Shown here: one piece after another, positions 2,765 to 52,245 of the stretch
How the letters are laid out: each line of letters begins with the position of its first letter
How positions within the stretch are numbered: position 1 is the first letter of the stretch
IMG/VR virus record: IMGVR_UViG_3300006990_000018
Length of the DNA: 64,000 nucleotides
Reading direction: 5' to 3' (one strand)
Source of the DNA: an uncultured virus (IMG/VR IMGVR_UViG_3300006990_000018)
Taxonomy: Duplodnaviria; Heunggongvirae; Uroviricota; Caudoviricetes
The notes under the pieces: generated by a model
What the model saw: only the letters and a program-made list of their open reading frames with translations
Databases searched by the model: none
What the model was told of the DNA's origin: nothing
Position numbers and translations under genes: made by a program

Positions 2765-5700
2765 ATGGCGGTCCCCGCTACGCGTGCCGACCTCATCCCA
2801 CCCGTGGGTGCTGGGGCTGGCTTGCCGCTCACTCTCGTGTGGGCGGACGACCTCACCGACGCTGGCGGCGCTGGAACCGAAGGCTACGCCTTATTTGATT
2901 CGGGTTTGTGGAAGCCGCAGTCTGAAACGACTCTGGGCGTCCCAATCGCCGTCTCGGGAGCCTCCGTCTCCTACGCTCATGGGACCTTGCTGGATTTTGC
3001 CTCCATGAACTTCCTCGGCTTGACCGCTGAGACAGAGGCACCACGATTGAACTTTGGAAACGGTCGCCTTGAGCACGGACAAGCCATGCAAGACGCTGGG
3101 TTCGGTCGGCACTCCGCTTCCAACATGCGCTCGTTCGCTCCTGCGGCAACGGCAACCATCACCGAAGTCGGTCGCCATGTGGAGCACCCTATGAGGTCGC
3201 ATACCTCCGCCCGCCCTGCGAACCACACTTGGTTTCAGCCACGACACAACGCCATGGCCAACGCCGCCATGCCGTCCTATGACCTACAAATCGGCTCGCT
3301 CGTTGATGCTGATGTTGGGTCAATTGGGACGGTGGAAGCGTTCACCCACCGAGTCGCCACGGACCTTCCATCCAACGGCGTGGGAGCCACCTATGGAGAC
3401 TCGCATAACTCAGCCTACCTGTCGTCTCTATGGTCATGCACACTCAACAATATGTCGTTGGCCAGCGGCCTACAACCCGCCGAGTTCAAGTCCACCGACC
3501 CCAAGGCATTCTCGTCTCATTGGGGAACCAATCTCCAAGTTCAACAGGAGGTCATGGTGAGCGGCACCCCATTGAGCGCCCCTGATGCCCAGAACACAGC
3601 CCCCTCTCACGGACTTATTGACGGGGATAGGCTGACCCTTCCTGCGGAGACGACGCAGACAATCATGGTCAGCGACATTCACACCGAGACGGGGACTACG
3701 GCTCAAGAGGAATTGACCTTCCCACTTGGAGCGGCCTACCTCGGGAACCATGTTGTCGCTGACACCTGTGGTCTCATCGGTTATGAAGGGGTATTTTCAG
3801 CAACAGCGTTTGCGAGCGTCTCACGCAACGCCAACGCTCCCTTTGTTGTTGCACCCCCAGCACACCCCCTCATACCCGACACGGCTTGGAATGAGGACGG
3901 AGCGGCCCTCTATGCGGGATTGAACATTCAAGTCCATAGCGGCCTCCCCTTGCGTCGCAACGGAATGTCATGGAATACCGCCAGCGAACCCCTATTCGTC
4001 TATGGAAGCGATGGAACGGCAGTCATGCCTATGACCGAGGGGATGAGCACTACGGGCGCCCGCTCGTCATTCAAAGGCGCTTCGTTCACGCTGAACGCTA
4101 ATCAAACCCGATTCCACACGGGGCGCGTCGTCCACCACACACAAGGCGGCAATATCAACGACCTGTCGGTCCCTACGCTCAATTCTCAAACCACGGGTGG
4201 GTCAGCCGCCCCAAGCGCAACAACGACGAGCAAGGGGCCTTCTCGCTTCATTCTCGGGGACTCCTACACCTCGGGGGCATGGACGGCCACCGTGAACCTC
4301 TCGCAGGAGTTCCTCAAGGACCGCATCCCAACCAAGGTGAAGGTCGTCCCAACCCTGCTGGGCTATGACGAGGTTAGCGTGGCCGCAGGAGCCAGCCATC
4401 CATCATCTGACCCCATCACCTTCAAGCGCCCTATCGTGGATTATCATGTGCTGGTGAGCCTTTCGCCCAAGGACCGCATCAACGCCACCGTGAACCTCAC
4501 GAACTCACGCATTGGGAACCCAACCGCTCGGAACTTCCCCCAAGCGAGCCGTCTAACGGCCAACATGGACCTTGAGGACGAAGGGTGTGAAATCTTCCAT
4601 GCGGTGTTCCGCGTGGCTCCTACGACGCTTGAGAGGGTCTTTTTTGACCCGTTGAGTCCGTCCGCCGCTACTTGGGGTGTGAACACATCGGATTCGGAGA
4701 TGCCGAACACGGTCATGCCTCGCCACGACGCCGACTTCGGTGGCTGGGGCCTGCATCAATTGACACCGTTCCGCCCAATAGCGAACACCTCATGGGCGCA
4801 GGTTCCTCTCCTATGCGCCGCCATAGAGTCGGGTGGCTATTATCAGAGGGGAGGGGTCTCACACCTGTGGGATGCTGACACCTACGGCAAGGAACTCTTC
4901 GTCTCTGCTGACGCCATAGACGCCAGCCACTTTGAGGACTCGGTGTGGGGCAACGGGCAAGTGTGGGCTGACGGCACGGGTGCGCTCGCCAATCCACGGG
5001 GGAGCGAACTGCTGGTGTTCAAATACAACCCCTCCCTTGACGCTTTCCATGTCAATAACCACACCACGCCAACGACAACTCCGCTCTATGAACTCGCCAC
5101 GACGCACACCACGAGCGAACAGTCCAGCGCCATAACCGTCTCGGACAAGTTCAAGCAATATGAGGGCTGGTCAATCCACGATTGGGTATTCCCTCAAATT
5201 GAACTCATGCGATACCTCGGACGAGAGGACAAAGCGGCCGCTATGCACCCTCGGCATAGCGCCAACACGGGCGGAGACCCCCTGTTCCATCCGACGCTTC
5301 ATTGTTCATCTCTGCGCTTCATGGACGACGGACGCATGGCCATGGCGGCAGTCCAGCGAGACCACATCGGGAGCGAGGAGGAATACCCAGCAAGCGACAT
5401 CAATTATCCGTTCAACCCCGAGAGTGGGTCGGGTTCGGGGTGCCCCGCTGGCTACTATCGGAGTGGCGACACCTGCGTGCCGATTTCATCGGGAGACAAC
5501 CCCAACACGGAGTCGGAACACCTTGACCCTATCACGGGTGAGGTCATTGATGGGCCACCTCCTACACCCGATAACGGCAACGGAGAGGGGCATGTTGGTG
5601 GCGGTGATAACTTCAATTTGTCCCCATCATGGAGTCGCATCGTAGCGAACACATCGGGTCGTTCGCTGGTGCTCATGTGGAGCGAAGCCAAGGCGTTGAA

Positions 5701-8700
5701 CGGCAAGGCGCAAGGTGGGCGTGCCCTCTTTGAAGCCGAGGCGAAAACGATTGACGGAGACACATACTACACCCAAAATTGGACCTACAACGACTCGTGG
5801 TGGAGCGGCTCTCGCATCTCGTATTGGTATCAAGAAAGCGGTCAGCGGGCTATCCCTATCACCTATGGTTCCTACCCCGAAGTGCGTATGTCGCACGCCA
5901 ACCTGCCCCGTTGCCTGCCCCACCTGTTCACGAGCGGAGTGGTGCATGGCTATCCACTCCTCCAACCGATTGACCGCATCAGCACACCTGCTCCCATCCG
6001 AGATGTGGCGGGGACCGACGCTTGGGCGCAGGAGCGCTACGACTTCCTCCGCCGAACGCGATTCGTCCCCACGACGATTGGCTTCGCCGACTTCGGTGCT
6101 GGTGCAAATCCGCATCAAGAAATGGGCTGGTCTGGATGGTCGTTCCCACAGGGGCTATACGACCCAATAGGGTTCGGGAACAACACGGTGTTCTTCTCTG
6201 ACGCTCCCGAATCACTTGCAGTCGCAGATGGAGTCGCCATCACTCCGTCGTCGCAGGGCCAATGGGCGGGCTTCGCCTCGTCCATCGCATTCGGGCACAT
6301 GACGGGACCGATGACTGCGTTCAGCCACCACGGACCGCTCCACTACGGCATCATGAGCGCCGACCACCCATTCAAACCCGACCGAGTATGGAAGCAGGTT
6401 CACGGCGGCGTAGGCTATGACATTCCCCTTCACCTACTGGCCCCAGCCGAGGTCCATGTGCGCGCCCGTGCGGGTGGGCGGAACTCGCTTGACCTTGAAA
6501 TGGAGACTCCGTTCCACCGAACGGACACCTTGCACCTTGACGGAGCGGCCCTGTTCAATGTCGGGTTTGACCAAGGGGGCAAGGCGACGCCCGACGCCAG
6601 CCGAACTCAATTGGGACAATATCACCTGCGGACCAACCTTTGGACCGACGATTCTCGCAAGGCAGGGGCGCTCACAGGCGGCCTTTTGACCACGGATAGG
6701 GTGAGGGGGCCTACGGTCTCGGGAAACGGCTTAGAGGCGTTTTGGAATGACCATCCGACCGAACACTTCCACGCTGGTGCAATCCCCATCATGCCGAGCA
6801 CCGACTACGATTTGAACACGATTGAGAACGAGCGCTACGCCCCAGCAATTCTCGGTCGCATCCATGAAATCAGCAACCTTGACTATGTAGCCGTCGCCGA
6901 GCAATTGCAGTCGTCCGTTGATGTTCATGTCTCTCAAGGGGCACGGCCGATGTGGGACTCGGGTTCAATTGTGAGCGGGCGTGGAGTCGGAGAGCGAGAC
7001 ACCACCACAGCGTCCAGCGTCTCTCAAGTTCGGAGTGAAATGAACGGCGAGGACATTCCAACTGCTTCCGAGTCGGCTACAAGCCACGATAACGGGATGG
7101 GCAAGGGTCAGCGAGTGGTTCGCACACCCGAGGGCACCTTGCACATTTTCCCGATTGAACGGTCGGGGCAAGCATCATCCAGCAACCTCCCACGCTTTGT
7201 TCACTACACGAAACCGTTGCACGGCGACCTGTTTTGGAACAGGAAAGCACTCAAAGCCAACCCATCCAACGCCACCTATGACGGCAAGGATGAGGTGGGG
7301 TATTTCCTCGGAGCAAGTGATGTGCTTCGGTCGGCTACATTCGCAAGCGACAGCGACGGCACGATTCACGCCGTCGTGGAAGTGCAACTCTCAACCGCCT
7401 CACCAAACCACAGCCTGTATTATCACTACGCAAAGCGGAAATTGGTTTCCTATAACCCACATCCAATCTATGAGTGGGATTGGTCCGAGCACACACCCGT
7501 TTTGATTGGAACCTTGAGCCACGACCTACGCCAACCATCGCTCGTGTGCGACTCCAATGACCGCCTGCACTTGGTCGCCCGCTATGTCTCGGACTCCTAT
7601 TCCCACATCGTCTATGGGAGCAAATTGCCGAGCGAGGACGAGTTCCCAGCCATGCCCGCCTTCGTCCAAGACCCCGCTGAGTGGGACACCAACATTTGGA
7701 GCAAGGTGAACAAGTCGCTGGTCGCTGGCTTTGTTGTGGCGAGCGACAACTCTGACGCAGGCACATCCCATGGGGTGATTGACTGCGATAACCCAAAGGT
7801 GTGTTTGCTTGGGGACGATACCCCGTTCGTGTTTTTCAGAGCAGGTGCGGCGGCTGAATCGGCAACGCTGGGAGACCGAGCCAACGACGCCATCTATGTG
7901 AACATTGGACGCAACGATACGGGTGCCTACGACCCAGCGGGTCGGTATCGGTTTAACGGCAACTTGGCCATGCACGCCATTGGCGTCCACGGAACGGCTC
8001 AATACCCCAGCACCAAGGTCATTTACTACGACGCCATCATTGACGAGCGAGACCGAGCCTTCATCACGGTAGTCAAAGACGATAATGGCCGACGGGTCTT
8101 GATGAACTCATTTGACGCATCGCTCCCCTTGACGGACCAATACACCACGGCCAAGGGCCTCGGCTTAACCAAGGCCCTGTTCATCCCCAAGAACACCACC
8201 GTCCGCCCGAACTATCAGCACATCACGACGACGACCAACGGCAAGGGCGAGGTTCACATGATTCTTGGATTCACCCTTAGCGGCGATGTGGAGCAGGCGA
8301 CTGCGATATACCGAGATGGAATCACCGAGGCCACCATAGCACCCCTTCAATGGGCTACAACGCCAGCCAGCGACTCCACGGCTACACCACCCGCCGCCAT
8401 GTCCGACGGAGGCGGCTACGAGGCTCCTGTGAGCGCCAGCGACTATGAGTGGCCCGACGGGGGAACCCACCTCACCCCAACCACGGGAACCATCACCCAC
8501 TTCATGGAGGTGTGGATGCCGACCTTTGAGTTCAGCCAAGATGTGTCGGACCCAGACGAAGTGCTCCGCTCAATCAACATTCGCTGGCTCTCCGTGCCCT
8601 CGTTGAACTACGACGCAACCAACGGCTGGTTCCCTGTTGGGTCAGCACAGTCGCTCAACGGACACGAGGACTTCACCCACACAAACCCACAATTGAGGTA

Positions 8701-8881
8701 TCAGAGGTATTGGGGCTTTGATGCTGGTGAACTTGACCTGCGATGGGCGACCAACGAACAATCGTGGATGAACACCCCACACGGCGGTTCTCGGGTTTAT
8801 TTCCCCTACGCTGGCGGTTCATTCACGACCGTTGGCGAGGGTGAAATTGAAGGCGACGGCATCGCTGGTTGGCCTATTTGA
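2765..8881 (+). CDS. Giant (2038 aa) putative virion tail/receptor-binding protein
   Basis: Long ORF rich in G/T/S/P; propeller-like DSDGTIHAV and DSNDRLHLV motifs; function inferred. Confidence 0.6.
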   Translation: MAVPATRADLIPPVGAGAGLPLTLVWADDLTDAGGAGTEGYALFDSGLWKPQSETTLGVPIAVSGASVSYAHGTLLDFASMNFLGLTAETEAPRLNFGNGRLEHGQAMQDAGFGRHSASNMRSFAPAATATITEVGRHVEHPMRSHTSARPANHTWFQPRHNAMANAAMPSYDLQIGSLVDADVGSIGTVEAFTHRVATDLPSNGVGATYGDSHNSAYLSSLWSCTLNNMSLASGLQPAEFKSTDPKAFSSHWGTNLQVQQEVMVSGTPLSAPDAQNTAPSHGLIDGDRLTLPAETTQTIMVSDIHTETGTTAQEELTFPLGAAYLGNHVVADTCGLIGYEGVFSATAFASVSRNANAPFVVAPPAHPLIPDTAWNEDGAALYAGLNIQVHSGLPLRRNGMSWNTASEPLFVYGSDGTAVMPMTEGMSTTGARSSFKGASFTLNANQTRFHTGRVVHHTQGGNINDLSVPTLNSQTTGGSAAPSATTTSKGPSRFILGDSYTSGAWTATVNLSQEFLKDRIPTKVKVVPTLLGYDEVSVAAGASHPSSDPITFKRPIVDYHVLVSLSPKDRINATVNLTNSRIGNPTARNFPQASRLTANMDLEDEGCEIFHAVFRVAPTTLERVFFDPLSPSAATWGVNTSDSEMPNTVMPRHDADFGGWGLHQLTPFRPIANTSWAQVPLLCAAIESGGYYQRGGVSHLWDADTYGKELFVSADAIDASHFEDSVWGNGQVWADGTGALANPRGSELLVFKYNPSLDAFHVNNHTTPTTTPLYELATTHTTSEQSSAITVSDKFKQYEGWSIHDWVFPQIELMRYLGREDKAAAMHPRHSANTGGDPLFHPTLHCSSLRFMDDGRMAMAAVQRDHIGSEEEYPASDINYPFNPESGSGSGCPAGYYRSGDTCVPISSGDNPNTESEHLDPITGEVIDGPPPTPDNGNGEGHVGGGDNFNLSPSWSRIVANTSGRSLVLMWSEAKALNGKAQGGRALFEAEAKTIDGDTYYTQNWTYNDSWWSGSRISYWYQESGQRAIPITYGSYPEVRMSHANLPRCLPHLFTSGVVHGYPLLQPIDRISTPAPIRDVAGTDAWAQERYDFLRRTRFVPTTIGFADFGAGANPHQEMGWSGWSFPQGLYDPIGFGNNTVFFSDAPESLAVADGVAITPSSQGQWAGFASSIAFGHMTGPMTAFSHHGPLHYGIMSADHPFKPDRVWKQVHGGVGYDIPLHLLAPAEVHVRARAGGRNSLDLEMETPFHRTDTLHLDGAALFNVGFDQGGKATPDASRTQLGQYHLRTNLWTDDSRKAGALTGGLLTTDRVRGPTVSGNGLEAFWNDHPTEHFHAGAIPIMPSTDYDLNTIENERYAPAILGRIHEISNLDYVAVAEQLQSSVDVHVSQGARPMWDSGSIVSGRGVGERDTTTASSVSQVRSEMNGEDIPTASESATSHDNGMGKGQRVVRTPEGTLHIFPIERSGQASSSNLPRFVHYTKPLHGDLFWNRKALKANPSNATYDGKDEVGYFLGASDVLRSATFASDSDGTIHAVVEVQLSTASPNHSLYYHYAKRKLVSYNPHPIYEWDWSEHTPVLIGTLSHDLRQPSLVCDSNDRLHLVARYVSDSYSHIVYGSKLPSEDEFPAMPAFVQDPAEWDTNIWSKVNKSLVAGFVVASDNSDAGTSHGVIDCDNPKVCLLGDDTPFVFFRAGAAAESATLGDRANDAIYVNIGRNDTGAYDPAGRYRFNGNLAMHAIGVHGTAQYPSTKVIYYDAIIDERDRAFITVVKDDNGRRVLMNSFDASLPLTDQYTTAKGLGLTKALFIPKNTTVRPNYQHITTTTNGKGEVHMILGFTLSGDVEQATAIYRDGITEATIAPLQWATTPASDSTATPPAAMSDGGGYEAPVSASDYEWPDGGTHLTPTTGTITHFMEVWMPTFEFSQDVSDPDEVLRSINIRWLSVPSLNYDATNGWFPVGSAQSLNGHEDFTHTNPQLRYQRYWGFDAGELDLRWATNEQSWMNTPHGGSRVYFPYAGGSFTTVGEGEIEGDGIAGWPI

Positions 8882-9016
8882 AGCAATAGTCGCAGTCTCA
8901 AACCTTGGTCCGTTTGGCCCACTTTTTTCCGTTCTTTATATACTGTCGCGTGTTTCCTTTGTCCGACACCTTAATATAGGGGGACCTCCTACGGTTAAAC
9001 AGAGGAGAGAAGAAAC

Positions 9017-9244: not shown

Positions 9245-9275
9245 GCCTAAATAGGTGGGGACACCTACAAGGGCC

Positions 9276-11036
9276 ATGAGTGTGGTCCGCATCAACATCC
9301 CCAGCAAGGGCAACCTGCCCGACCTGCGGGAGAAGGTGCGGCCCGACTTCCCCATGCCGTCCTTTCGCAAGTTCCAAGCGGAGGCGCTCAGCGTCGCCTA
9401 TTGGGCGCTTGAGAACGACGACTTTCACAACATCGTGATTCAAGCCCCCACGGGGATTGGGAAGTCCGCTATCGCCATGACGATTCAGTCGCAGTTCAAG
9501 TCGGCCTACCTACTCACACCGTCTTTGGGCCTTGCAGAGCAATACAAGACCGACTATGGCCACCGATTGGAAGAGGTGCGGGGTAGGTCCAACTTTGACT
9601 GTTGGGCGCGCTCTGGGACCGCTAAGAGCGCTCCTTGTTGGACGAGGACCAACGGGTCCTGCAAGCACTCCAAACGCAAGGAGGACGGTGGGGACCCCTG
9701 CCCGTATTATGAGCAACGCTTCGCCGCTGAGGACGCTTCCTTGACCCTCTCCAACCCTGCCTACTTGTTCCGTGCTGTGCGTGGCTACACCAACTTTGAG
9801 CAACGGGAGTTCGCCATCATAGACGAAGCGCACGACATGGAGGGGTTCATTCACGACCTCTTGGAGGTGCGATTGAGCGCCAAGGAATGGACCACCGTGT
9901 TCGGCAAGGGACGGTTCCCCAACCACCTCACCCCCAAGGATTGGAGGGCTGAAATCAAGGAACGCATTGAGGTCGCTCGCAAGGTCTTGGATAAGGCCGA
10001 GGCAGAACTCAACATCACCAAGTCTGAGAAGGAGGTGGAGCGCATCAAGGAGGCTGTTTCCAAAATGGAGACGGCGCTGGAAGTGCTCGTCCAGCCAAAC
10101 AATGTGCACATCTCGTTTGAGAACAACCGCTTCGGAGAGTTCCTCATCATCAAGCCCATTCGGGTGCGAAACTACGCCGCTGAAATCCTTGAGAGCGTCG
10201 CCGAGCGTCGCATTTTCCTCTCGGCCACCGTGCTTGACCTTGATACCTTCCTGCACGGGCTGGGGCTTGAGGACCAGCGCACGCTATACATCAACATCAC
10301 GCAGTCGCCCTTCCCGAAGGAGAACTTCAATGCTCACTATGTCCCATGCGGGTCTATGTCGTGGGGCAAGCGCAAGCACACCATCCCGAAGCAAGTCAAG
10401 GCTCTGGACGCCATTCTCAAGCAATACCCGAACAAGCGAGGGGTTATCCTACCGCATAGCCACGCCATCCGAAAGGAAGTGGTGGACGGACTGATTGCCG
10501 CTGGGCACGGAGACCGAATACGAACTCACGACTCCAACGCTCGTGCTCGGGACGAGGTGCTCAAGGACTTCTTCACCAGCAAACGAGACGACCTCGTGCT
10601 CATCAGCACCTATGTCGGGCAGGGCTTTGACTTCAAGGGCAAATTGGCTGAGTTCCTGTGCATCCTCAAGGTGCCCTACCTGCCGACCAAGGACCCCGTT
10701 ATCGCCGAGCGCATGATGCAGGACGAACTCGCATGGAGGCAGGTTCACGAGGCCACTCCCTCGTGTCCCTACGAGCCTCCCAGCAAATACAGCGGCGAAC
10801 TGTGCGGAGCGGGTTTCACCTGCCCTGCACCGTGTCAGAAGTGGTATCAATTGCAGACGGCACTCTCCATCGTGCAAGGCGCAGGGCGCGTCGTGCGTAG
10901 CCCCGACGATGTGGGCCACCTGTTCATCCTTGACGGCGGCTGGGCGCGATTCGCTCGGTCCAGCGGGCATCTGCTCCCGTCTTGGTTCAAGGACAATGTG
11001 CGAGAGGCTCCACGCTGGTTGAAACGACAGTTATAG
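9276..11036 (+). CDS. XPD/DinG-family SF2 helicase with FeS cysteines
   Basis: APTGIGKS, DEAH, LSAT, GQGFDF and QGAGRVVRS motifs, four Cys after motif Ia; start moved to the ATG about 22 nt after the TATA box. Confidence 0.92.
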   Translation: MSVVRINIPSKGNLPDLREKVRPDFPMPSFRKFQAEALSVAYWALENDDFHNIVIQAPTGIGKSAIAMTIQSQFKSAYLLTPSLGLAEQYKTDYGHRLEEVRGRSNFDCWARSGTAKSAPCWTRTNGSCKHSKRKEDGGDPCPYYEQRFAAEDASLTLSNPAYLFRAVRGYTNFEQREFAIIDEAHDMEGFIHDLLEVRLSAKEWTTVFGKGRFPNHLTPKDWRAEIKERIEVARKVLDKAEAELNITKSEKEVERIKEAVSKMETALEVLVQPNNVHISFENNRFGEFLIIKPIRVRNYAAEILESVAERRIFLSATVLDLDTFLHGLGLEDQRTLYINITQSPFPKENFNAHYVPCGSMSWGKRKHTIPKQVKALDAILKQYPNKRGVILPHSHAIRKEVVDGLIAAGHGDRIRTHDSNARARDEVLKDFFTSKRDDLVLISTYVGQGFDFKGKLAEFLCILKVPYLPTKDPVIAERMMQDELAWRQVHEATPSCPYEPPSKYSGELCGAGFTCPAPCQKWYQLQTALSIVQGAGRVVRSPDDVGHLFILDGGWARFARSSGHLLPSWFKDNVREAPRWLKRQL

Positions 11037-11075
11037 GCCGACACCTTAATATAGGGGAACCTGCTACGATTAAAC

Positions 11076-12309: not shown

Positions 12310-14115
12310 ATGGGCGACGAGAACGAACGCTTCCAGCGCATCGTGAGAGCGCCTGCTGACGACCCGTTCATCATCAGCCCACCCAAGGTCCTGCTGGACG
12401 AGGTGGAACGGCTGGGACAGGACCCACGGCGTCCAAGGACGGCCGTTGCACGCTGGGCCTCCCGTCTATGGGCCGAGACCCAAAGGGAGCGCATACGGCG
12501 TGCTCCTGCGCCCTCCATGAATAACGCTCCATCCGAGAAGGAACTCATGGAACGCCCCGCTCACTACCCGACCGACTTCGGCCTTGGCCTCATCCCGTTC
12601 CCGAACGAGGTGGGTGGATGGGTGCTGGATAAGACCGCCACGACCTGCTACACAAGCCTCTCCGTCCCCCGCCCGTTTGACCCACACCTACACGGAGACC
12701 TAACCGCAGAGACCGTTGGGTTCGGCTACATGTATCACGGGACCTCTCCGTTCCCCGACCGATACGACATCGTGAACCGAAGGGGTGGAGGTCCACGAGG
12801 CGGGTTCGCTTTCACCAGCGGACCTACCGAGGGCAATTATCCCTCCACTATCCTACCCTCACCGACCTTCAACCTCGGCGACCTTGGGTTTAGCGACGGC
12901 GGCTGGAATCCCGAGGGCCTGCAATACACGAACCGCCCCCGTCAAATGCGACTCGGCGGTCTCCGCAACGGGTGGCCGCATCAAGTGTTCTTCGTCCGCT
13001 CACGGCAGGTATTCTTTCGCAACCTATACGGCCCAATAGCCTCGGACGAGGCAACGCCACGAGCACCCACCGTTGTGCTGAACGGAAGCAAATCCATTCA
13101 CGGCGTTCTCTCAGTTTCATCTCGCCACGAACTCAACGCGCCCCGTCGGCTGACGGTTCGTATTTCATCGGTCGTCGGTCGGAGAGCGGGAGTCGCCCAA
13201 GTCGGGGACACCATCCAAGTCTATGCGGCTCCACGGCGCTGGGCGAACCCACCGCTGATTTTCACGGGCTTCGTGTCCGACCTTGAGGAGACCACGAATG
13301 AGGTCGTCTTGACCTGCCTTGACCCGCTCGGGTTCCTCACCAACGAGACCATTCTGAACGATGAACTGCTCGTCCGAGGGGACGCCGCATCGGTGATAAA
13401 GGGCATCGTGGCTCAATCGTCATACGCTCCGCCTATTGGCCGTATTAGCACCGAGAGCCTCGTGTCCGTGCCGTCGGGCCTCGTGCTCAAGGGCAAGACC
13501 TTGCTGGACGCAGTTCAAACCGTGCTCGGTTTCATCAACATAGCACCAGCGCCCATGACGATTTATGCCGACGGCAAGGGCTACATTCACCTACGCTCGC
13601 TCGCCGAGGTGGACGACTCAAGCCTCACTCCTCTCGTGGCTGGGCGTATGCCCCGCACAGCCGTGCCGCAGGACTTTTATCCAACCAGCGTGGAACGGGT
13701 CAAGGGCGACCTTGACATTTTCAATGTGATAACGGTTCAGAACAACTCGGCTGGGGTCTCATTCACCTACCCACCCGAGGACGACGCCTCATATCCCCGC
13801 CGTCCAGTCCATCGGGTTGTTCAAGAATCCACAGTCCAAGACGAACGGCAAGCAGAGCAGTTCGCCCGCTTGATGTTGGCCAATAACGGGCGAACCCAAG
13901 AGCAATTCATCATTGAGGGCCTCCCAGAACGCTTTGACATTCGGGCGGGTGATGTGATGGAGTTTGCATCGTCGGCGGGTATCGCTGGCCGCCACCGAGT
14001 CTTTTCGGTTGGTTGGGAATTGACACCCGAAGGGGCGCGTATGACGCTCTCCGTGGGCCGCCAATCGGCGAACCTTGTGGCCACCTTGCGATTCGCAAGC
14101 GGCCTGTCGTTGTGA
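12310..14115 (+). CDS. Baseplate hub / tail tip protein (gp27/GpD/Tal-like)
   Basis: IFTGFV..LEE....LTCLD, YADGKG, NVITV and DIRAGDV..RVFSV..ELT..MTLSVG pattern typical of hub proteins. Confidence 0.7.
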   Translation: MGDENERFQRIVRAPADDPFIISPPKVLLDEVERLGQDPRRPRTAVARWASRLWAETQRERIRRAPAPSMNNAPSEKELMERPAHYPTDFGLGLIPFPNEVGGWVLDKTATTCYTSLSVPRPFDPHLHGDLTAETVGFGYMYHGTSPFPDRYDIVNRRGGGPRGGFAFTSGPTEGNYPSTILPSPTFNLGDLGFSDGGWNPEGLQYTNRPRQMRLGGLRNGWPHQVFFVRSRQVFFRNLYGPIASDEATPRAPTVVLNGSKSIHGVLSVSSRHELNAPRRLTVRISSVVGRRAGVAQVGDTIQVYAAPRRWANPPLIFTGFVSDLEETTNEVVLTCLDPLGFLTNETILNDELLVRGDAASVIKGIVAQSSYAPPIGRISTESLVSVPSGLVLKGKTLLDAVQTVLGFINIAPAPMTIYADGKGYIHLRSLAEVDDSSLTPLVAGRMPRTAVPQDFYPTSVERVKGDLDIFNVITVQNNSAGVSFTYPPEDDASYPRRPVHRVVQESTVQDERQAEQFARLMLANNGRTQEQFIIEGLPERFDIRAGDVMEFASSAGIAGRHRVFSVGWELTPEGARMTLSVGRQSANLVATLRFASGLSL

Positions 14116-14316
14116 AGAAAAGGTGAGGCGCAGGGAGCGAGAACTTTGCCCTGTTGGGATTCTCGGTATGCGCCTCGGGGCGAGCACAGGGAGCGAGAAC
14201 TTGGCCCTACACGGGATTCTCGGTATGTGCTCTAAGCGTTCCCTCGCCGCCTATCCATCCCATCTCCCCACAGGTGTGGTTCTTGGGCGTGGCGGGTTCG
14301 GCTTGGGTCTGCTCTG
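14116..14316 (-). ncRNA. Putative structured ncRNA of about 200 nt with two tandem domains
   Basis: Intact minus-strand promoter, no usable ORF, duplicated ~51-nt covarying domain, U-tract end. Confidence 0.6.
14125..14232. repeat. Tandem ~51-bp hairpin repeat (14125-14176 and 14182-14232)
   Basis: Shared core GGGAGCGAGAACTT.GCCCT...GGGATTCTCGGTA closed by GAGGCGCA/TGCGCCTC and GAGCACA/TGTGCTC. Confidence 0.9.
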
Positions 14317-14359
14317 ATTAGTCCTATGAGCCACTCCTATATGAAGGTGTCGCTCAAAA
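14317..14359 (-). promoter_or_regulatory. Minus-strand family promoter
   Basis: Reverse complement reads TTTGAGCGACACC-TTCATATA-GGAGTGG. Confidence 0.75.
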
Positions 14360-14615
14360 GGGTTGGACCCCCGCCGACGCTTCACCATTCAGCAAAAACG
14401 CACCCCCTCAACACCTTGCGATGTGAGGTTGGGTGGGCGTGCGGCGGGGTGGCCCCCAAGGGTTCCGTGTGCATGAGGGCGGTGGAATTGCTCCGCCTTG
14501 CATCCGCTCGTAGGTATTTCACCTTCCGCTAAACACATCGGTCCCTTGAGGGCCTGTCCTTGAATCCCCCCGACTCGCATCGGGAGGTGCTTCGGTCGGG
14601 GTTGTTGCCCCAACA
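14357..14615 (-). ncRNA. Putative structured ncRNA of about 260 nt
   Basis: Promoter with no ATG; GNRA-capped hairpins (GCGA, GCAA); 5'/3' terminal pairing; UUUU end. Confidence 0.62.
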
Positions 14616-14659
14616 ATCTATCGTAGCGGTCGCCCCTATATCAATGTGTCGGTCTCAAA
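14616..14659 (-). promoter_or_regulatory. Minus-strand family promoter
   Basis: Reverse complement reads CCGACACA-TTGATATA-GGGGCGACCG-CTACGATAGA. Confidence 0.8.
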
Positions 14660-14763
14660 GGTTTAATTCAAGGGGCTTTGGGCAAAAATCCGACATGAAG
14701 AAACACTCGGCATATAGGTTCTGAGCGTTCTCAAGGCCAAAAATCGCAAAAAGCCCCCATCAT

Positions 14764-14864
14764 TAGCCCCCCTATGGGGGGCTACCCCCAATGATTGAAA
14801 CAGACTTACACACTAACACACACACACAACAAACAAACTGTGTGTATGAAAGAGGAGAGGGGTC
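14764..14864. other. Candidate replication origin element
   Basis: Perfect 9-bp inverted repeat at 14764-14784 plus a (CA)n/(TG)n element homologous to 44321-44373, just upstream of the helicase gene. Confidence 0.4.
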
Positions 14865-14909
14865 GGTCTGCATCATTGTTAAGAGGGTGGGGGTAGGCTT
14901 GAGGTGAGC

Positions 14910-16904
14910 ATGGCCCCCGAAATTATCGTCAGTCAATCCACCGAGTCGTCGTCCGACTTCCTCTTTGAAGCCGCCGACCTACCCGTGAAATTGACCTTCC
15001 TGTCGTCCACAAAGGGACGCATGGAGTTCAGCGCTGAGGTGGATGGCGAACCCAAGGGCAAGGTCAATGTCCTGTCCCAGCACTCCATCGCTCGGCTCGC
15101 CAAGTCGTCGCTCAAGGACGAGGGACTCAAGGACGAGTTCACCGCCACGATGCTCAAGGCTGGCGTGATTCTCCGAGAAGGCACCTATGTCGTCGCCACC
15201 ATGGAGGACAAAACAACCGCCGAAGTCATGTCGCTTGAGGGCGAGTCATCCACCTACGGGGACATTGAGCCAGCGACCATCGGACGATTCCTCGGCGAGC
15301 GCTTCCTGTTGGACCGTATCAACGAGATTCTCCACGAGAGTCGTGAGACCCCGTTCGTCGGAGACGATGCTAACCTGCTCCTCACCTTCCTCGTGTTCTT
15401 GTCCTGCAAGACGGACAACCCGCTCAACCTTGAGATGATTGGGCAGTCATCCAGCGGCAAGACCTACATGACCTTGACCGCTCGCAACGGCTTCCCCAAG
15501 TCCATGATTATGGTTCTCGCTGGGGCCTCCAAGGAGGCGCTGAAATACGACTACGACGAGGTGGATGAGGACGGAAACTTCATCGTCAATGTGGACGGTC
15601 GTTGCATCGTCGTCTTGGAAAAGGACGAGTCATTCGCATTCATTCGCAAGATGAAGCCCATCATGTCGGGAGACGACACGGAACTCGTTTGGAAAACTCC
15701 CATCAAGAATGAGTTATCGGGGGAAATAGAGACGAGGGACTTCATCATCAGAGGTCGTCCGTCGTTCATCACGCTCACCACTCGCAACCCCAGCGAGCAG
15801 GAGCAAATCACACGGCAACTCATCATGACACCCGACACGACGGTGGAGAAGGTGAATGAAGTGGTCAAGAACGCCTTGCTGGCCAAGGCACGACCCGAGA
15901 CCTTCAAGGTGCACCCCGACCTCAAAATGCTTCAAGCGTCCATGCTTTCACTCAACCGCTATCGGGTCCGCAACATTTTCGCCCCGCTCATGGTGGACTT
16001 CTTCCCCGCTCGCAACGCTCAGCACCAGCGAGACATCGGCAAGGTGCTCTCCATCATTGACGCCGTGGCTCTGCTCCACCAGCACCAGCGACCTGTGCAA
16101 AAGGACGAGCACGGGGACGAATACCTGCTGGCCTCCGTGGAGGATAATGTGATAGGGCTTATGCTCTGCGACCTCGTTCTCCGAGCCAGCCTGTCGGGGG
16201 TGCCCGACGACACTTGGACCGTATATCAGCAAATGACCGCCATGGAGGAAGCCAAGCGCCCGCTCACCGAGGACAACATTCTCCAATGGCTCGGCATCCA
16301 CGCCTTCACCATCAGCAAGAACGCCCTCAAGGAGAAGCACCTCCCAACGCTTGAGGACGCTGGCCTCATTGAGGTCGCTCGTCGTGGCGGAGGGCGCGGT
16401 GGCGGCAAGAAGGCATACCGCCTCGTCAAATCTCGCATCGGTCTCATGGACGACTACGCCCTGTCCCCCCTGTTCGTGGAAGCGGCGGCGGCGAACCTAC
16501 ACGACCTCGCCAACGAATACAACGATGTTTTGACCAGCGCCGAACCTGCCGCTCACCGATTCCCATTGAAGGCGAAGGACCAATCCCTTCTCCGCTCCAT
16601 CGGATGCCCCAGCAAGGAAGCGTCCGAGGTTTGGCGGTCTTTGTTCCTCCCATCCTACCTACGCCCTGCTGGACGCTCAACGCTCCTGTGGGACATCGTA
16701 GGAAAGGACTCCAAACACCGAGACGGATTGTTCGGTGGGGACGCTTGGTTCAACGCTACGAGCGACGCAACAGCGGCATTGAGCAAGCGCCGAGAAGTCA
16801 AGGAAGCCATCAAGACTGCCTCGCAGTCCACCACTTTGGATAACGAGGACCTATGGGAAGCGATGATGGATGCACACCTGTCGGGACTTGAGGATGATGA
16901 TTGA
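14910..16904 (+). CDS. MCM-like AAA+ ATPase, putative replicative helicase, with a wHTH-like C-terminal region
   Basis: Walker A GQSSSGKT, IVVLEKDE Walker B-like motif, ITLTT sensor, ITRQ arginine finger; adjacent to the SSB. Confidence 0.7.
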   Translation: MAPEIIVSQSTESSSDFLFEAADLPVKLTFLSSTKGRMEFSAEVDGEPKGKVNVLSQHSIARLAKSSLKDEGLKDEFTATMLKAGVILREGTYVVATMEDKTTAEVMSLEGESSTYGDIEPATIGRFLGERFLLDRINEILHESRETPFVGDDANLLLTFLVFLSCKTDNPLNLEMIGQSSSGKTYMTLTARNGFPKSMIMVLAGASKEALKYDYDEVDEDGNFIVNVDGRCIVVLEKDESFAFIRKMKPIMSGDDTELVWKTPIKNELSGEIETRDFIIRGRPSFITLTTRNPSEQEQITRQLIMTPDTTVEKVNEVVKNALLAKARPETFKVHPDLKMLQASMLSLNRYRVRNIFAPLMVDFFPARNAQHQRDIGKVLSIIDAVALLHQHQRPVQKDEHGDEYLLASVEDNVIGLMLCDLVLRASLSGVPDDTWTVYQQMTAMEEAKRPLTEDNILQWLGIHAFTISKNALKEKHLPTLEDAGLIEVARRGGGRGGGKKAYRLVKSRIGLMDDYALSPLFVEAAAANLHDLANEYNDVLTSAEPAAHRFPLKAKDQSLLRSIGCPSKEASEVWRSLFLPSYLRPAGRSTLLWDIVGKDSKHRDGLFGGDAWFNATSDATAALSKRREVKEAIKTASQSTTLDNEDLWEAMMDAHLSGLEDDD

Positions 16905-18581: not shown

Positions 18582-18606
18582 ATAGGTGGGGGACCAACCC
18601 TTCACC

Positions 18607-19497
18607 ATGGCTCGCTCAAAGAAGAAGGCTCAGAACTACGCAGACCTCATCGCTTCCTGTGATACGGGAGAGGACATGATTCGCCGACGACCTCGGCACA
18701 TGAAGGTCCAAGGATTCAGCGGGGCGGGCAAGTCCACCTTCGCTCTCACATTCTTTGCTCACCACGCATCTCAAGTGGACCCCGAAGCGGCGCTCATGTG
18801 CATCATTGACTGCGACCTTGAGGGTCAAGCAGACCTCGTGGCTCGGGACGACCTCGTGCCTCCCAGCGTCCGTCCACGCATCCTCCGCAAGGTGTGTCGC
18901 ACACCCGACGAGGTGAACGACATGAGCCTCGCCTTCATTGACCTCATGCGTCAGCACAAAGAGGAGCACCCCGAAGGTGTGCGAGTCTTGGTCATGGAGA
19001 ACGAGGGAGCATTTTACCTCGCCTGCCGTGAGCACTACGCTTCCAGCGTCCACGGTATGTCCGAGGGCGAACTTCTCCTCTCCCGTCAGCAAGAGGCTAT
19101 CAGCCAAGGCAAAAAGACACTACCTGCCTACGCTGAGGGTCAAATGCACGCCTACAAGGTCATTAACAAACTGTTCTATTCACCCTATGAGCGCCTCAAA
19201 ATCGGCGGCGAAATGTATGGGTATCACTTCCTCTCCACGGTCCTCCTCAAGACCAAGACTGAGAACTACGGCACGCCTAACGAGAGCCGTGTGATTCTCG
19301 CCGCTGGTCGCCCCGACATGACCGACCCCCTATTTGATTGGATAGTTGAGATAACCCAGCAACAGCGCACCGTCAAGGGCGAGGTTGAGTCTCGCCACTT
19401 CGCTCACATCAAGAAGTCCCGAGCCTGCCGCCCGTTCCGTCTTGAGAACCCAACGCAGGAACGCTTTTGGAAGGCCGTGGATAAGGCGTCTCAATGA
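18607..19497 (+). CDS. P-loop ATPase, RecA/Sak4 (AAA_24)-like recombination protein
   Basis: GFSGAGKST Walker A, IIDCD; next to an exonuclease. Confidence 0.75.
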   Translation: MARSKKKAQNYADLIASCDTGEDMIRRRPRHMKVQGFSGAGKSTFALTFFAHHASQVDPEAALMCIIDCDLEGQADLVARDDLVPPSVRPRILRKVCRTPDEVNDMSLAFIDLMRQHKEEHPEGVRVLVMENEGAFYLACREHYASSVHGMSEGELLLSRQQEAISQGKKTLPAYAEGQMHAYKVINKLFYSPYERLKIGGEMYGYHFLSTVLLKTKTENYGTPNESRVILAAGRPDMTDPLFDWIVEITQQQRTVKGEVESRHFAHIKKSRACRPFRLENPTQERFWKAVDKASQ

Positions 19498-21422: not shown

Positions 21423-21452
21423 TTGAAATAGGTGGGGCGACCCCTTGGGGGT

Positions 21453-22262
21453 ATGCTCACCCCGAACTCCAAGGTGTCTCGGACCGCTCGCATTGAAGCG
21501 AACGGTGGAGCGCTGGCGACATTCCTTAGTCGTCTGGCCTTGGACTCACCACCCGTGCCCGTCCGCATCCTCTTTGAACCCGAGGGAGCATCCTGCTGGA
21601 CGATGAACGCAGGCAAGACCCTCATGGTTCTGATGGACCGCTGGGCGATTGACGGCCTCAAGGTCAAGGAGCCATGCGCCATCGTGTGCAACCCCAAGGA
21701 ACTCGCCGACCTCGTGCGAGCCAAGTCCCGAGGGGGAACGGTGCGTCTGACGACCTCGGCCAACGAGCCAATCGCCATTAGCACGAAAGAGCACGGGGGT
21801 GCCGAGGTTATGCCCGCCGATGAGGACGACTGCCTCATCATCCCCGACAAGAATGTGCTTCCCACCAACGACGAAGGCAAACGACTTTTCCCCATGTTTG
21901 ACGACGAGCCAGCGACGAGCGAGGCCATCCTCACCATCTCAGAATTGACCAAGGCCAGCATGGAGATGCAAACGGCCAACGCTCCCTATGTGGCGGTGTC
22001 GTTTGACGCCAAGTCTGAGGCTCGGGCTGGTCATTGGGGAGGCAAGACTACCCGCTCGTGGACCCCAATTGAAGCCACCTTCTCGGGCGCGCCGTTCACC
22101 GTCTCCTTCACCGATACCCTCAAATCGCTCATAAGCGTGCTCAACGGCGCAGGAGATGCTCTCAAGGTCTCCAAGCACCACAAAGGACATTTCCTCGTTG
22201 TGGAGACGACGACAGGCAACAAAACCACAATAGTCGCCACCGAGGCAATCAAGGAGACATAG
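21453..22262 (+). CDS. PCNA-like DNA sliding clamp (divergent)
   Basis: About 270 aa with the PCNA-like pattern ILFEPEGASCWTMN..KTLMVLM and VKEP.AI..N.KEL; RFC and a PIP-bearing PolB are also present. Confidence 0.65.
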   Translation: MLTPNSKVSRTARIEANGGALATFLSRLALDSPPVPVRILFEPEGASCWTMNAGKTLMVLMDRWAIDGLKVKEPCAIVCNPKELADLVRAKSRGGTVRLTTSANEPIAISTKEHGGAEVMPADEDDCLIIPDKNVLPTNDEGKRLFPMFDDEPATSEAILTISELTKASMEMQTANAPYVAVSFDAKSEARAGHWGGKTTRSWTPIEATFSGAPFTVSFTDTLKSLISVLNGAGDALKVSKHHKGHFLVVETTTGNKTTIVATEAIKET

Positions 22263-22474: not shown

Positions 22475-22515
22475 TAGGCGACACCTTAATATAGGTGTGG
22501 ACGCTACGGTTAAAC

Positions 22516-24255: not shown

Positions 24256-24455
24256 TCGCCCTCGCCGAATCGGACGAGGGCCAATTCCTATTTTCGTTGA
24301 TGAAGGACCTCGGCATCACGCCCGAAGAATGGAGGTCCATGGACCTACGGGACACGACCTTCCTACTCTCCGCCAAGTCGGAGTCAAACCGAAGAGTCAA
24401 TAACGAGCAACGCAGAGTCCAATCTCAGCAAAGGGCGCGTAGGAGGCTGAGGTGA
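24246..24455 (+). CDS. Tail assembly chaperone -1 frameshift extension (gpT-like)
   Basis: -1 frame open from the slippery site; LGITPEEWRSMD motif. Confidence 0.75.
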   Translation, partial: GGIIALAESDEGQFLFSLMKDLGITPEEWRSMDLRDTTFLLSAKSESNRRVNNEQRRVQSQQRARRRLR

Positions 24456-24457
24456 GG

Positions 24458-32770: not shown

Positions 32771-32796
32771 AATAGGTGGGTGCACCCCTTCGGGGT

Positions 32797-52187: not shown

Positions 52188-52245
52188 GTCGGTTCCATTT
52201 GTTTTGAGCGACAGGTTAATATAGGGGTGTCCCCTACGATTAAAC

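What the first reader, a model, noticed from the sequence alone, without database searches (positions are those of the whole stretch)
14116..14359. Third ncRNA with a tandem duplicated domain showing compensatory base changes
Seen: a second minus-strand promoter begins exactly where the 260-nt RNA terminates. The downstream ~200 nt hold two ~51-nt copies with a nearly invariant core (minus strand UACCGAGAAUCCC-loop-GGGC(C/A)AAGUUCUCGCUCCC). The closing stems differ but stay perfectly paired (GAGCACA/UGUGCUC vs GAGGCGCA/UGCGCCUC), and otherwise mainly the apical loop varies. This is internal covariation evidence for selection on structure. Inference: tandem aptamer or protein-binding modules, such as a decoy or sponge for a host protein or defence factor, or a small ribozyme.
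Basis: partly seen in the sequence, partly recalled or inferred. Interest (0 to 1): 0.82.

Follow-up and report, generated by a model that had tools for sequence, protein, structure and literature searches.

The report
Conserved hairpin module in archaeal-virus RNA
A marine archaeal-type tailed virus carries an optional small noncoding RNA gene, driven by the virus's own promoter, that contains one or two copies of a strongly conserved 51-base bulged hairpin matching no known RNA family and of unknown function.

Summary
Two hairpin modules lie on the minus strand (c1 14182-14232, c2 14125-14176). Their 36-37-nt cores differ at one bulge base and in the apical loop. The closing stems differ but stay paired.

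The minus strand is the likely functional strand:
- A 47-nt profile built only from 22 plus-strand gene promoters scores the site at 14316-14362 (minus) 47.1 bits, rank 10 in the window.
- A UUUUCUU run follows c2.
- The intergenic region has 6 T-runs on minus and 0 on plus.

The predicted RNA runs from about 14315 to about 14115, roughly 200 nt, and is noncoding.

Against a relative, the modules are 98% identical while the flanking genes are 76-86% identical. The module occurs only in the closest relatives, in three lineages:
- two copies at the RNA's 3' end (window type and L009 type);
- one copy 7 nt from the predicted 5' end (L007);
- a 93% relative (L008) lacks the whole cassette.

There is no Rfam match, no copy in prokaryote genomes, and no expression data.

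Best reading (about 0.4): an accessory viral ncRNA whose hairpin is a sequence-specific binding module, probably for a protein. The ligand and purpose are unknown. The ribozyme reading is unsupported; the decoy reading is untested.

The parts
14316..14362 (-). Promoter of the third noncoding unit. It covers an upstream CCUUUUGAG element, CGACACCTTCATATAGG, and a 20-nt proximal element.
   Evidence: A PWM built from the 22 plus-strand promoters only scores it 47.1 bits, rank 10 of all positions on both strands. The 17-mer matches perfectly. It is 46/47 identical in L009.
14315..14315 (-). Predicted transcription start (the A of AGAGCAG). There is no start codon here.
   Evidence: In 16 of 22 plus-strand sites the ATG lies exactly 20 nt after the motif, and in 3 more at 21 nt. 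Here that position reads AGA. The start is inferred, not measured.
14233..14314 (-). 5' domain: a long irregular hairpin that varies among relatives.
   Evidence: Folds. It is 81% identical to L009 with a 12-nt apical insertion. It is absent from L007.
14182..14232 (-). Module c1: P1 GAGCACA/UGUGCUC, loop GUGUA, bulge CCAA.
   Evidence: 72.2 bits; z -4.70.
14177..14181 (-). GCCCC linker between the modules.
   Evidence: L009 has one extra C here.
14125..14176 (-). Module c2: P1 GAGGCGCA/UGCGCCUC, loop AACA, bulge CAAA.
   Evidence: 83.3 bits; z -5.65.
14115..14124 (-). ACC spacer plus UUUUCUU run: the likely 3' end or terminator. Its last U is complementary to the final A (14115) of the TGA stop codon (14113-14115) of the convergent 601-aa gene.
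   Evidence: T>=4 runs in the 788-nt intergenic region number 6 on minus and 0 on plus.
12310..14115 (+). Convergent 601-aa gene with a weak tail-protein match. It ends 9 nt before c2.
   Evidence: phrog_1887, E 1.5e-6.
14394..14661 (-). Upstream neighbouring minus-strand unit: promoter 14615-14661, predicted start 14614, U5 run at 14394-14398.
   Evidence: (27.9 bits, rank 26).

Best explanation
This is an accessory, self-contained transcription unit of an archaeal-type tailed virus.

The virus's own leaderless-gene promoter is placed antisense to the surrounding genes. It drives a noncoding RNA of about 200 nt (about 14315 to 14115, minus strand).

The conserved working part is a hairpin of about 51 nt:
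- a variable closing stem of 6-8 bp;
- an invariant asymmetric internal loop (UAC / CUCCC);
- an invariant 7-bp helix (CGAGAAU/GUUCUCG, with a U-G pair);
- a 4-nt bulge (CCAA or CAAA);
- a CCC/GGG helix;
- a free apical loop.

It is present once or twice. I think it most likely acts at the RNA level as a sequence-specific binding site for a trans-acting factor, most plausibly a protein of the host or the virus, which it would titrate or recruit. In the window the last copy plus the U-run also forms the RNA's 3' end.

Shown: the motif, its fold, the stem covariation, its conservation and its distribution.

Inferred: transcription, the RNA's ends, and RNA-level action.

Guessed: the kind of ligand and its purpose.
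For: Promoter and strand:
- The promoter motif occurs 25 times against 0.72 expected.
- The minus site scores 47.1 bits with a profile trained only on plus-strand sites.
- ATG sits at a fixed 20-nt distance in 16 of 22 gene promoters, but the same position reads AGA here, so the unit is noncoding.
- The modules fold better and more uniquely on the minus strand: z -4.7/-5.65/-3.54 with MFE frequency 0.65, against z -3.28/-3.59/-1.59 with frequency 0.19-0.43 on plus.
- One inner pair is U-G on minus, which would be a C-A mismatch on plus.
- T-runs in the intergenic region number 6 on minus and 0 on plus.

Selection:
- Modules plus linker are 107/109 identical to L009. The RNA's own 5' domain is 81% identical, and the flanking genes 76% and 86%.
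- Between the two paralogous copies, the differences fall only in P1 (always compensated), the apical loop and one bulge base.

Modularity:
- In L007 a single copy sits 7 nt from the predicted start and is followed by a different 3' hairpin.
- So the module is not tied to the terminator position.

Accessory status:
- L008 (93% flank-protein identity) lacks the promoter, the RNA and the modules.
- Relatives at 78-81% carry a small leaderless protein gene or other RNAs in the same slot.
Against: - There is no expression evidence.
- Only three lineages carry the module, so covariation rests on a few events. It is confined to P1 and is strand-symmetric.
- P2 and P3 never vary, so their pairing rests on energy models alone.
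- High conservation next to diverged flanks could also come from recent recombination of a cassette.
- No candidate binding protein was identified. Pfam on 77 ORFs in all gave no recognised RNA-binding domain.
- No host RNA that it could mimic was found.
- Invariant helices would equally fit recognition as double-stranded DNA.
Confidence: 0.4

Rival explanations
1. The hairpins are mainly 3'-end formers. They would act as a tandem terminator or stabiliser and as an insulator between the convergent 601-aa gene and the minus-strand RNA, with no specific ligand.
For: c2 is followed after 3 nt by UUUUCUU, and c2 lies 9 nt beyond the stop codon of the convergent gene. The two upstream minus-strand units also end in a hairpin plus a U5 run.
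Against: A terminator needs a stable stem, not an invariant asymmetric core. The core is identical in all copies while the stem drifts. In L007 the module is at the 5' end and another hairpin closes the RNA. To my recollection, archaeal termination needs oligo-U rather than a hairpin.
Confidence: 0.17
2. The modules are ligand-sensing aptamers, a tandem riboswitch. They would decide whether minus-strand transcription stops at the U-run or runs on as antisense RNA into the 601-aa gene.
For: A variable closing stem and apical loop with invariant internal loop and bulge is also the signature of small aptamers. In the window P1 of c2 doubles as the terminator stem. In L007 the module is followed by a second hairpin.
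Against: No Rfam riboswitch matches at E<=10. No gene lies downstream in cis. The pocket is small. The module is found in only three lineages.
Confidence: 0.1
3. The RNA is a base-pairing regulator. It would be either cis-antisense to plus-strand read-through from the 601-aa gene, or a trans-acting C-rich (UCCC/CUCCC) small RNA that pairs with G-rich pre-start sequences.
For: The whole unit is antisense to any read-through, and the plus strand has no T-run in the 788-nt region to stop such read-through. Each module carries AAUCCC and GCUCCC. The 3' tail CCUCACCU is complementary to AGGUGAGG just before the ATG of the tape-measure gene.
Against: No complementarity longer than 12 nt to anything else in the window. 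There were 3 such 12-mers per strand, near the ~0.8 I estimated by hand. Most C-rich bases are inside helices. The tail is not shared by L007.
Confidence: 0.1
4. It is a DNA-level element: a protein-binding inverted repeat, cruciform or iteron belonging to a replication origin or operator next to the 666-aa P-loop/winged-helix gene.
For: CGAGAA...TTCTCG is a dyad. The 666-aa neighbour has a Walker A motif and a winged-helix-like DUF7344 in 16 of 21 homologues. The stem changes are strand-symmetric.
Against: L008, with a 93% identical 666-aa protein, lacks the element, so it is not essential. It lies about 700 bp from that gene. The conserved asymmetry (3x5 loop, 4-nt bulge) and the U-G pair make sense only in a single strand. 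There is no GC-skew turn here.
Confidence: 0.1
5. It is a small palindromic mobile or recombining element (MITE/PATE-like). Its similarity among copies would reflect recent spread, not function.
For: It appears in two different RNA contexts and in 1-2 copies. A palindrome-associated element is the most transcribed, antisense, intergenic region of a haloarchaeal tailed virus (PMC10544981, passages read).
Against: There are only 1-2 copies per virus, none elsewhere in the 64-kb window or 57 related loci, none in 185,579 species' genomes by pattern, and none in other viruses. No transposase was seen in the window. Copies differ by compensated stem changes, not random ones.
Confidence: 0.06

Closest known systems
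Phage-encoded antitoxin-mimic RNA (pseudo-ToxI of phage PhiTE against ToxIN; PMC3475682, abstract seen; repeat length and copy-number details recalled)
   Same: A noncoding viral RNA made of short tandem repeats. Copy number differs between close relatives. The element is dispensable.
   Different: ToxI repeats are near-identical and mimic a host RNA. Here the copies differ by compensated stem changes, and no host counterpart was found. The host is archaeal.
RNA anti-CRISPRs (Racr, solitary repeat units; PMC10651486, abstract seen)
   Same: A small promoter-driven viral ncRNA hairpin of about the length of a CRISPR repeat (the core is 36-37 nt), in an accessory position.
   Different: No similar repeat was found in any of 185,579 species' genomes by pattern or in 151 genomes of the putative host order by covariance model. 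The module has its own complementary flanks rather than spacers.
Highly transcribed antisense intergenic PATE of Halorubrum tailed virus DL1 (PMC10544981, passages read)
   Same: An archaeal tailed virus with an intergenic, antisense-oriented noncoding element rich in palindromes.
   Different: That element is 99% identical to a host sequence and is transposon-derived. This one has no host copy and uses the virus's own promoter.
Hairpin-plus-U-run terminators
   Same: c2 followed by UUUUCUU at the end of the unit.
   Different: The core is invariant and asymmetric. The module is duplicated. In L007 it lies at the 5' end.
Tandem bulged-hairpin RNAs such as the class I NAD+ riboswitch (nadA motif) and HK022 put RNA (both recalled, not read)
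   Same: Two similar adjacent stem-loops with conserved internal loops or bulges.
   Different: No Rfam match at E<=10. There is no downstream gene in cis, and no sequence resemblance was established.

Membership tests
Any Rfam 15 family (including self-cleaving ribozymes, riboswitches, C/D and H/ACA RNAs) | Covariance-model match at the gathering score | tested here: not met
   0 matches in the whole window. At E<=10 in 14000-15000 there were only three miRNA-like hits of 15-20 bits against cut-offs of 71-88.
Hairpin + U-run terminator | Stable hairpin directly followed by a U-run at the end of a transcription unit | tested here: inconclusive
   Met for c2 in the window and L009 (ACC then UUUUCUU or UUUUCAUU). 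Not met for c1. Not met in L007, where the module is 7 nt from the predicted start.
RNA anti-CRISPR / CRISPR repeat mimic | Sequence and structure similarity to a host CRISPR repeat | tested here: not met
   The core pattern has 0 matches in genome contigs. Model R1 found no significant match in G002 and G003 or in 151 genomes of G002's order (best E 0.12 per genome). The host itself is not identified, so absence is not proven.
Type III antitoxin mimic (pseudo-ToxI-like) | Near-identical tandem repeats matching a host antitoxin array next to an endoribonuclease toxin gene | tested here: not met
   The copies differ in stem and loop. No host copies were found. Copy number does vary, 1 versus 2.
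Archaeal H/ACA guide RNA | ACA box right after the lower stem, a large pseudouridylation pocket, and a K-turn or K-loop in the upper stem (features recalled) | tested here: not met
   By inspection: GCCCC follows c1 and ACC follows c2. The internal loop is only 3x5 nt. There are no tandem G-A pairs.
Bulge-helix-bulge splicing/processing motif | Two 3-nt bulges on opposite strands separated by 4 bp (recalled) | tested here: not met
   The fold has a 3x5 internal loop and one 4-nt bulge, separated by 7 bp.
IS200/IS605-derived PATE/MITE | Many dispersed copies, and a transposase or its remnants | tested here: not met
   Copies occur only at this locus in 5 viral contigs. There are 0 in prokaryote genomes. 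No transposase family was found in 77 ORFs.
Origin iterons / initiator binding repeats | Repeats required next to the initiator gene and conserved with it | tested here: not met
   L008 keeps the 666-aa gene at 93% identity and lacks the repeats.
Archaeal-type promoter-driven transcription unit | TATA-like element at a fixed distance upstream of the start, shared with the virus's genes | tested here: met
   The centre of TTAATATA lies about 26.5 nt before the A of the ATG in the gene promoters. The canonical archaeal spacing is recalled, not tested here.

The most novel reading that the evidence does not exclude
The hairpin is an RNA decoy. An uncultured marine archaeal virus would express one or two copies of a high-affinity binding site to titrate a host sequence-specific RNA-binding protein, such as a defence nuclease or regulator. 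It would sit in a hot-spot slot where related viruses swap promoter-equipped RNA or small-protein cassettes. That would be an RNA-based counter-defence or host-takeover device in archaeal viruses.
Probability: 0.15. Interest if true: 0.8.

Novelty: new member of a known kind. Interest (0 to 1): 0.5.

Why it matters
Noncoding RNAs of marine archaeal tailed viruses are essentially undescribed. A full-text search for 'magroviruses' listed 18 papers. The founding magrovirus paper has no occurrence of promoter, noncoding or intergenic.

This locus offers three things:
- a precisely defined 47-nt viral promoter that separates coding from noncoding units by the presence of ATG at +21;
- a compact RNA module under strong constraint that can be synthesised and probed;
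- a variable slot that exchanges RNA and protein cassettes between relatives.

If the module binds a host factor, it would give a handle on virus-host conflict in an uncultured, abundant group of archaea.

Its narrow distribution (three lineages) limits its general importance until a function is found.

Tried and rejected
- **Rfam:** nothing at the gathering score or at E<=10.
- **Phage GenBank collection:** blastn of 13000-16000 found no match.
- **Expression:** no RNA holder listed. Laying four runs gave, for the one run guessed to be RNA, a single 151-nt contig over 14042-14182 at depth 2. This says nothing about transcription.
- **Wider homologues of the module:**
  - Three viral pattern scans found only the same contigs: 4 with the first, 5-nt-loop pattern, and the same 5 with the two relaxed patterns.
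  - The metagenome scan gave 10 loci. 5 are the same virus clade. 5 are inner-helix chance matches inside coding-like DNA without the outer stem.
  - A structure-only descriptor over the slot of 26 relatives found the shape only in the known carriers, plus 3 chance-looking hits.
- **Host mimicry:** 0 pattern matches in genome contigs. R1 found nothing in two MAGs that carry related viral contigs or in 151 genomes of one MAG's order. The order's identity is not disclosed.
- **Trans targets:** no complementarity beyond chance in the window.
- **Coding:** rejected. There is no ATG at +21. Against L009 there are two 1-nt indels, a 4-nt indel, a 12-nt insertion in L009 and a TAG in the window frame.
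- **tRNA-like:** ARAGORN found nothing.
- **Kissing between the two apical loops (UGU/ACA):** dropped, because L009 has GUGCA.
- **H/ACA, C/D, K-turn, BHB:** rejected by inspection.
- **Identity of the neighbouring 666-aa and 601-aa proteins:**
  - PDB phmmer and a PDB profile search, NCBIfam and PHROGs gave nothing usable.
  - There were only weak DUF7344 and atlas PF27228 leads.
- **Earlier-findings look-ups:** empty.
- **Literature:** one search was badly framed and useless.

Full report
**Setting**

The window is a tailed virus with nearly all genes on the plus strand. Recognised genes include a tape-measure protein, collagen-like fibre, family B DNA polymerase, primase-polymerase, XPF/ERCC4 nuclease, XPD-like helicase, CbbQ-like AAA and a CobT-VWA protein. 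An RFC-like AAA was found later.

The polymerase's best annotated relatives are haloarchaeal tailed viruses at about 24% identity. All related contigs come from marine or seawater collections.

The finding lies in a 788-nt intergenic region (14116-14903). On one side is a 601-aa gene with a weak tail match. On the other is a 666-aa gene of unknown function with a Walker A motif. A winged-helix-like DUF7344 is detectable in 16 of 21 of its homologues.

On the minus strand the two modules are c1 (14182-14232) and c2 (14125-14176).

- The core pattern occurs exactly twice in the window and never in 100 shuffles.
- Each module folds alone into the same hairpin: P1 of 7-8 bp; internal loop UAC/CUCCC; a 7-bp P2 ending in a U-G pair; a 4-nt bulge CCAA or CAAA; CCC/GGG; and a 4-5-nt loop.
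- The fold scores z -4.7 and -5.65, and the MFE structure makes up 65% of the ensemble.
- On the four distinct module sequences I could find, 4 of 8 P1 pairs change on both sides. All 10 inner pairs are invariant. 97.1% of cells pair, against 22-53% with slid partners.

The covariation is therefore real but limited to the outer stem. It is strand-symmetric (A-U to G-C swaps and one compensated pair insertion).

**Which strand**

CGACACNTTNATATAGG occurs 25 times in the window (0.72 expected). 22 copies are on the plus strand, and two perfect copies are on the minus strand at 14336-14352 and 14635-14651. The third minus hit, at 21985-22001, has 3 mismatches and does not score in the profile.

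In 16 of the 22 plus-strand sites an ATG follows exactly 20 nt after the motif. In 3 more it follows at 21 nt. In the remaining 3 it lies elsewhere. That places the centre of TTAATATA about 26.5 nt before the A of ATG. As I recall it, this is the canonical archaeal TATA-to-start spacing, so the genes look leaderless.

A 47-nt weight matrix built only from the 22 plus-strand sites scores the minus site at 14352 at 47.1 bits. That is rank 10 of all positions on both strands. The minus site at 14651 scores 27.9 bits, rank 26. No other minus-strand site is in the top 40.

At the position where genes have ATG, these two units read AGA and GTT. They are therefore gene-type promoters without a gene.

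Further polarity evidence:
- The intergenic region has 6 T>=4 runs (4 of them T>=5) on the minus strand and none on the plus strand.
- c2 is followed by ACC-UUUUCUU.
- The modules fold less uniquely on the plus strand: z -3.28, -3.59 and -1.59, with MFE frequency 0.19-0.43.
- For the whole region, z is -2.33 on minus against -0.38 on plus.

The predicted RNA runs from about 14315 to about 14115, roughly 200 nt. It comprises a variable 5' hairpin, c1, a GCCCC linker, c2 and a U-run. Transcription itself is inferred. I found no expression data.

**It is not coding**

- There is no start codon at the predicted start.
- The only ATG-initiated frame stops at a TAG in c1's loop in the window but stays open in L001.
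- Against the same relative (L001, same contig as L009) the alignment shows two 1-nt indels, a 4-nt indel near the 3' end and a 12-nt insertion in the relative.

**Distribution**

The flanking 666-aa protein retrieved 59 related viral loci at 49-100% identity. A covariance model of the module (R1) was run over the window plus 57 of those loci. The two 100%-identical loci were not included.

The model hit only:
- the window (2 copies);
- L009 and L010, one lineage at 92% (2 copies each);
- L007 at 94% (1 copy);
- one 16-bit chance hit.

Pattern scans of all viral contigs returned only these contigs: 4 with the first pattern, and the same 5 with the two relaxed patterns. The metagenome scan added only further copies of the same three variants, plus 5 chance inner matches. 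A structure-only descriptor found no analogous hairpins in the same slot of 26 relatives.

In L007:
- the single copy is c2-like, with P1 GACGCA/UGCGUC and loop GAGA;
- it starts 7 nt after the predicted transcription start;
- it is followed by a different 3' hairpin, which L012 also has.

L008, at 93%, lacks the entire unit. The sequence passes from the end of the upstream RNA directly to the stop codon of the 601-aa gene.

Other relatives hold other cassettes in the same slot, each with its own copy of the promoter:
- L018, L019 and L016 have a minus-strand leaderless gene of about 80 aa.
- L012, L016 and L017 have unrelated RNAs. Those of L016 and L017 start AGAGC.
- The L012-type RNA is inverted in L018.

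The unit is therefore an accessory, exchangeable cassette, and the module is a lineage-specific part that can sit at either end of an RNA.

**Selection**

Identity between the window and L009:

| Segment | Identity |
|---|---|
| Modules plus linker | 107 of 109 aligned positions (1 loop substitution, 1 linker indel) |
| Promoter | 46 of 47 |
| RNA's 5' domain | 81% |
| Last 400 nt of the 601-aa gene | 76% |
| First 400 nt of the 666-aa gene | 86% |

At 14% divergence, one or no substitution in 108 nt has a probability of about 2e-6 (my arithmetic from those figures).

Between the paralogous copies, the differences are confined to P1 (always compensated), the apical loop and one bulge base. So the core is constrained in sequence, not only in pairing. 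That points to recognition by a specific partner. The alternative is very recent recombination with breakpoints at the module edges, which I cannot exclude.

**What it is not**

- It matches no Rfam family.
- It has no ACA box, K-turn, C/D boxes or bulge-helix-bulge geometry (inspection).
- It is not a tRNA.
- There are no copies in one genome for each of 185,579 prokaryote species, by core pattern.
- R1 has no significant match in two MAGs that contain related viral contigs or in 151 genomes of the order of the archaeal one (best per-genome E 0.12).
- There is no target complementarity beyond chance in the window.
- No recognised RNA-binding protein was found among 77 ORFs scanned against Pfam.

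**Mechanism**

A variable closing stem, a free apical loop and invariant internal loop, bulge and inner helices form the pattern seen in protein-binding hairpins and small aptamers. Position independence (5' end in L007, 3' end here) and copy number of 1-2 argue against a purely terminator role. Dispensability (L008) argues against an origin or other essential cis element.

I therefore favour an RNA-level, sequence-specific binding module on an accessory viral ncRNA (0.4). A protein is the most likely ligand. In the window, c2 doubles as the 3'-end hairpin.

The rivals, in my order:
1. a plain terminator or insulator (0.17);
2. a ligand-sensing tandem aptamer controlling antisense read-through (0.10);
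3. a base-pairing regulator (0.10);
4. a DNA-level site (0.10);
5. a small mobile palindrome (0.06).

The closest precedents by logic are:
- phage decoy RNAs, namely pseudo-ToxI (PMC3475682, abstract) and RNA anti-CRISPRs (PMC10651486, abstract);
- the highly transcribed antisense intergenic element of a haloarchaeal tailed virus (PMC10544981, passages).

The membership tests for all of these fail or are inconclusive.

**Verdict**

This is a real, well-defined, strongly conserved RNA motif with good indirect evidence for transcription, and it is new as a family. Its function is open, and it occurs in a very narrow set of viruses. Interest is moderate (0.5).

Noticed in passing
window, 22 plus-strand sites, e.g. 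8964-8980, 11039-11055, 22479-22495, 52209-52225: The virus has a long (~47 nt) conserved promoter: ccTTTGAG-CGACACCTTAATATAGG-gGTGgccCCTACGGTTAAAC, followed directly by ATG (exactly 20 nt after the motif in 16 of 22 sites). The conservation between the TATA-like box and the start is unusually strong and may be a regulator site.
   Followed up: partly
window 9255-9278, 18586-18609, 21432-21455, 32776-32799: A weaker promoter variant, (T/A)AAATAGG-N20-ATG, precedes several genes. The listed ORF starts (GTG inside the motif) are probably 21 nt too far upstream.
   Followed up: no
window 14394-14661 (minus): The upstream minus-strand unit has its promoter at 14615-14661 and a predicted start at 14614. 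Its 5' ~75 nt (two hairpins) are conserved in L007, L008 and L009. The middle is variable, with a large insertion in L008. It ends in a hairpin plus U5. It matches no Rfam family.
   Followed up: partly
window 14739-14880: A G/C hairpin (GGGGGUAGCCCCCC...GGGGGGCUA) is followed by two U5 runs on the minus strand. A CACACACA/TGTGTG-rich block lies just upstream of the 666-aa gene. Recognisable versions of both are present in relatives down to 78% (L012, L016, L018). No consensus promoter precedes the 666-aa gene.
   Followed up: no
L018 2350-2606 (minus); L016 1820-2100 (minus); L019: In 78-81% relatives the same slot holds a leaderless minus-strand gene of about 80 aa behind the same promoter. 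In L018 the L012-type RNA is present in inverted orientation. The slot behaves as a cassette hot spot.
   Followed up: partly
window 14904-16904: The 666-aa protein is conserved in 59 viral loci. It has Walker A (GQSASGKT) and a VVLEKDES box, and a weak DUF7344 in 16 of 21 homologues. The language-model neighbours carry PF27228 and TrmB-type HTH.
   Followed up: partly
window 2765-8881: A 2038-aa ORF has no Pfam or PHROG match.
   Followed up: no
window 14115-14132 (minus) versus 24446-24457 and 14895-14909 (plus): The RNA's 3' tail CCUCACCU is complementary to AGGUGAGG directly before the ATG of the tape-measure gene, and to AGGUGAG before the ATG of the 666-aa gene. This could be chance, and the tail is not shared by L007.
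   Followed up: no
L081 (genome contigs), L082/L083: A 55.5-kb contig of this virus group is filed in a MAG labelled Legionellales, which looks like mis-binning. Two further contigs sit in a MAG labelled Methanobacteriota archaeon, a possible host hint.
   Followed up: partly
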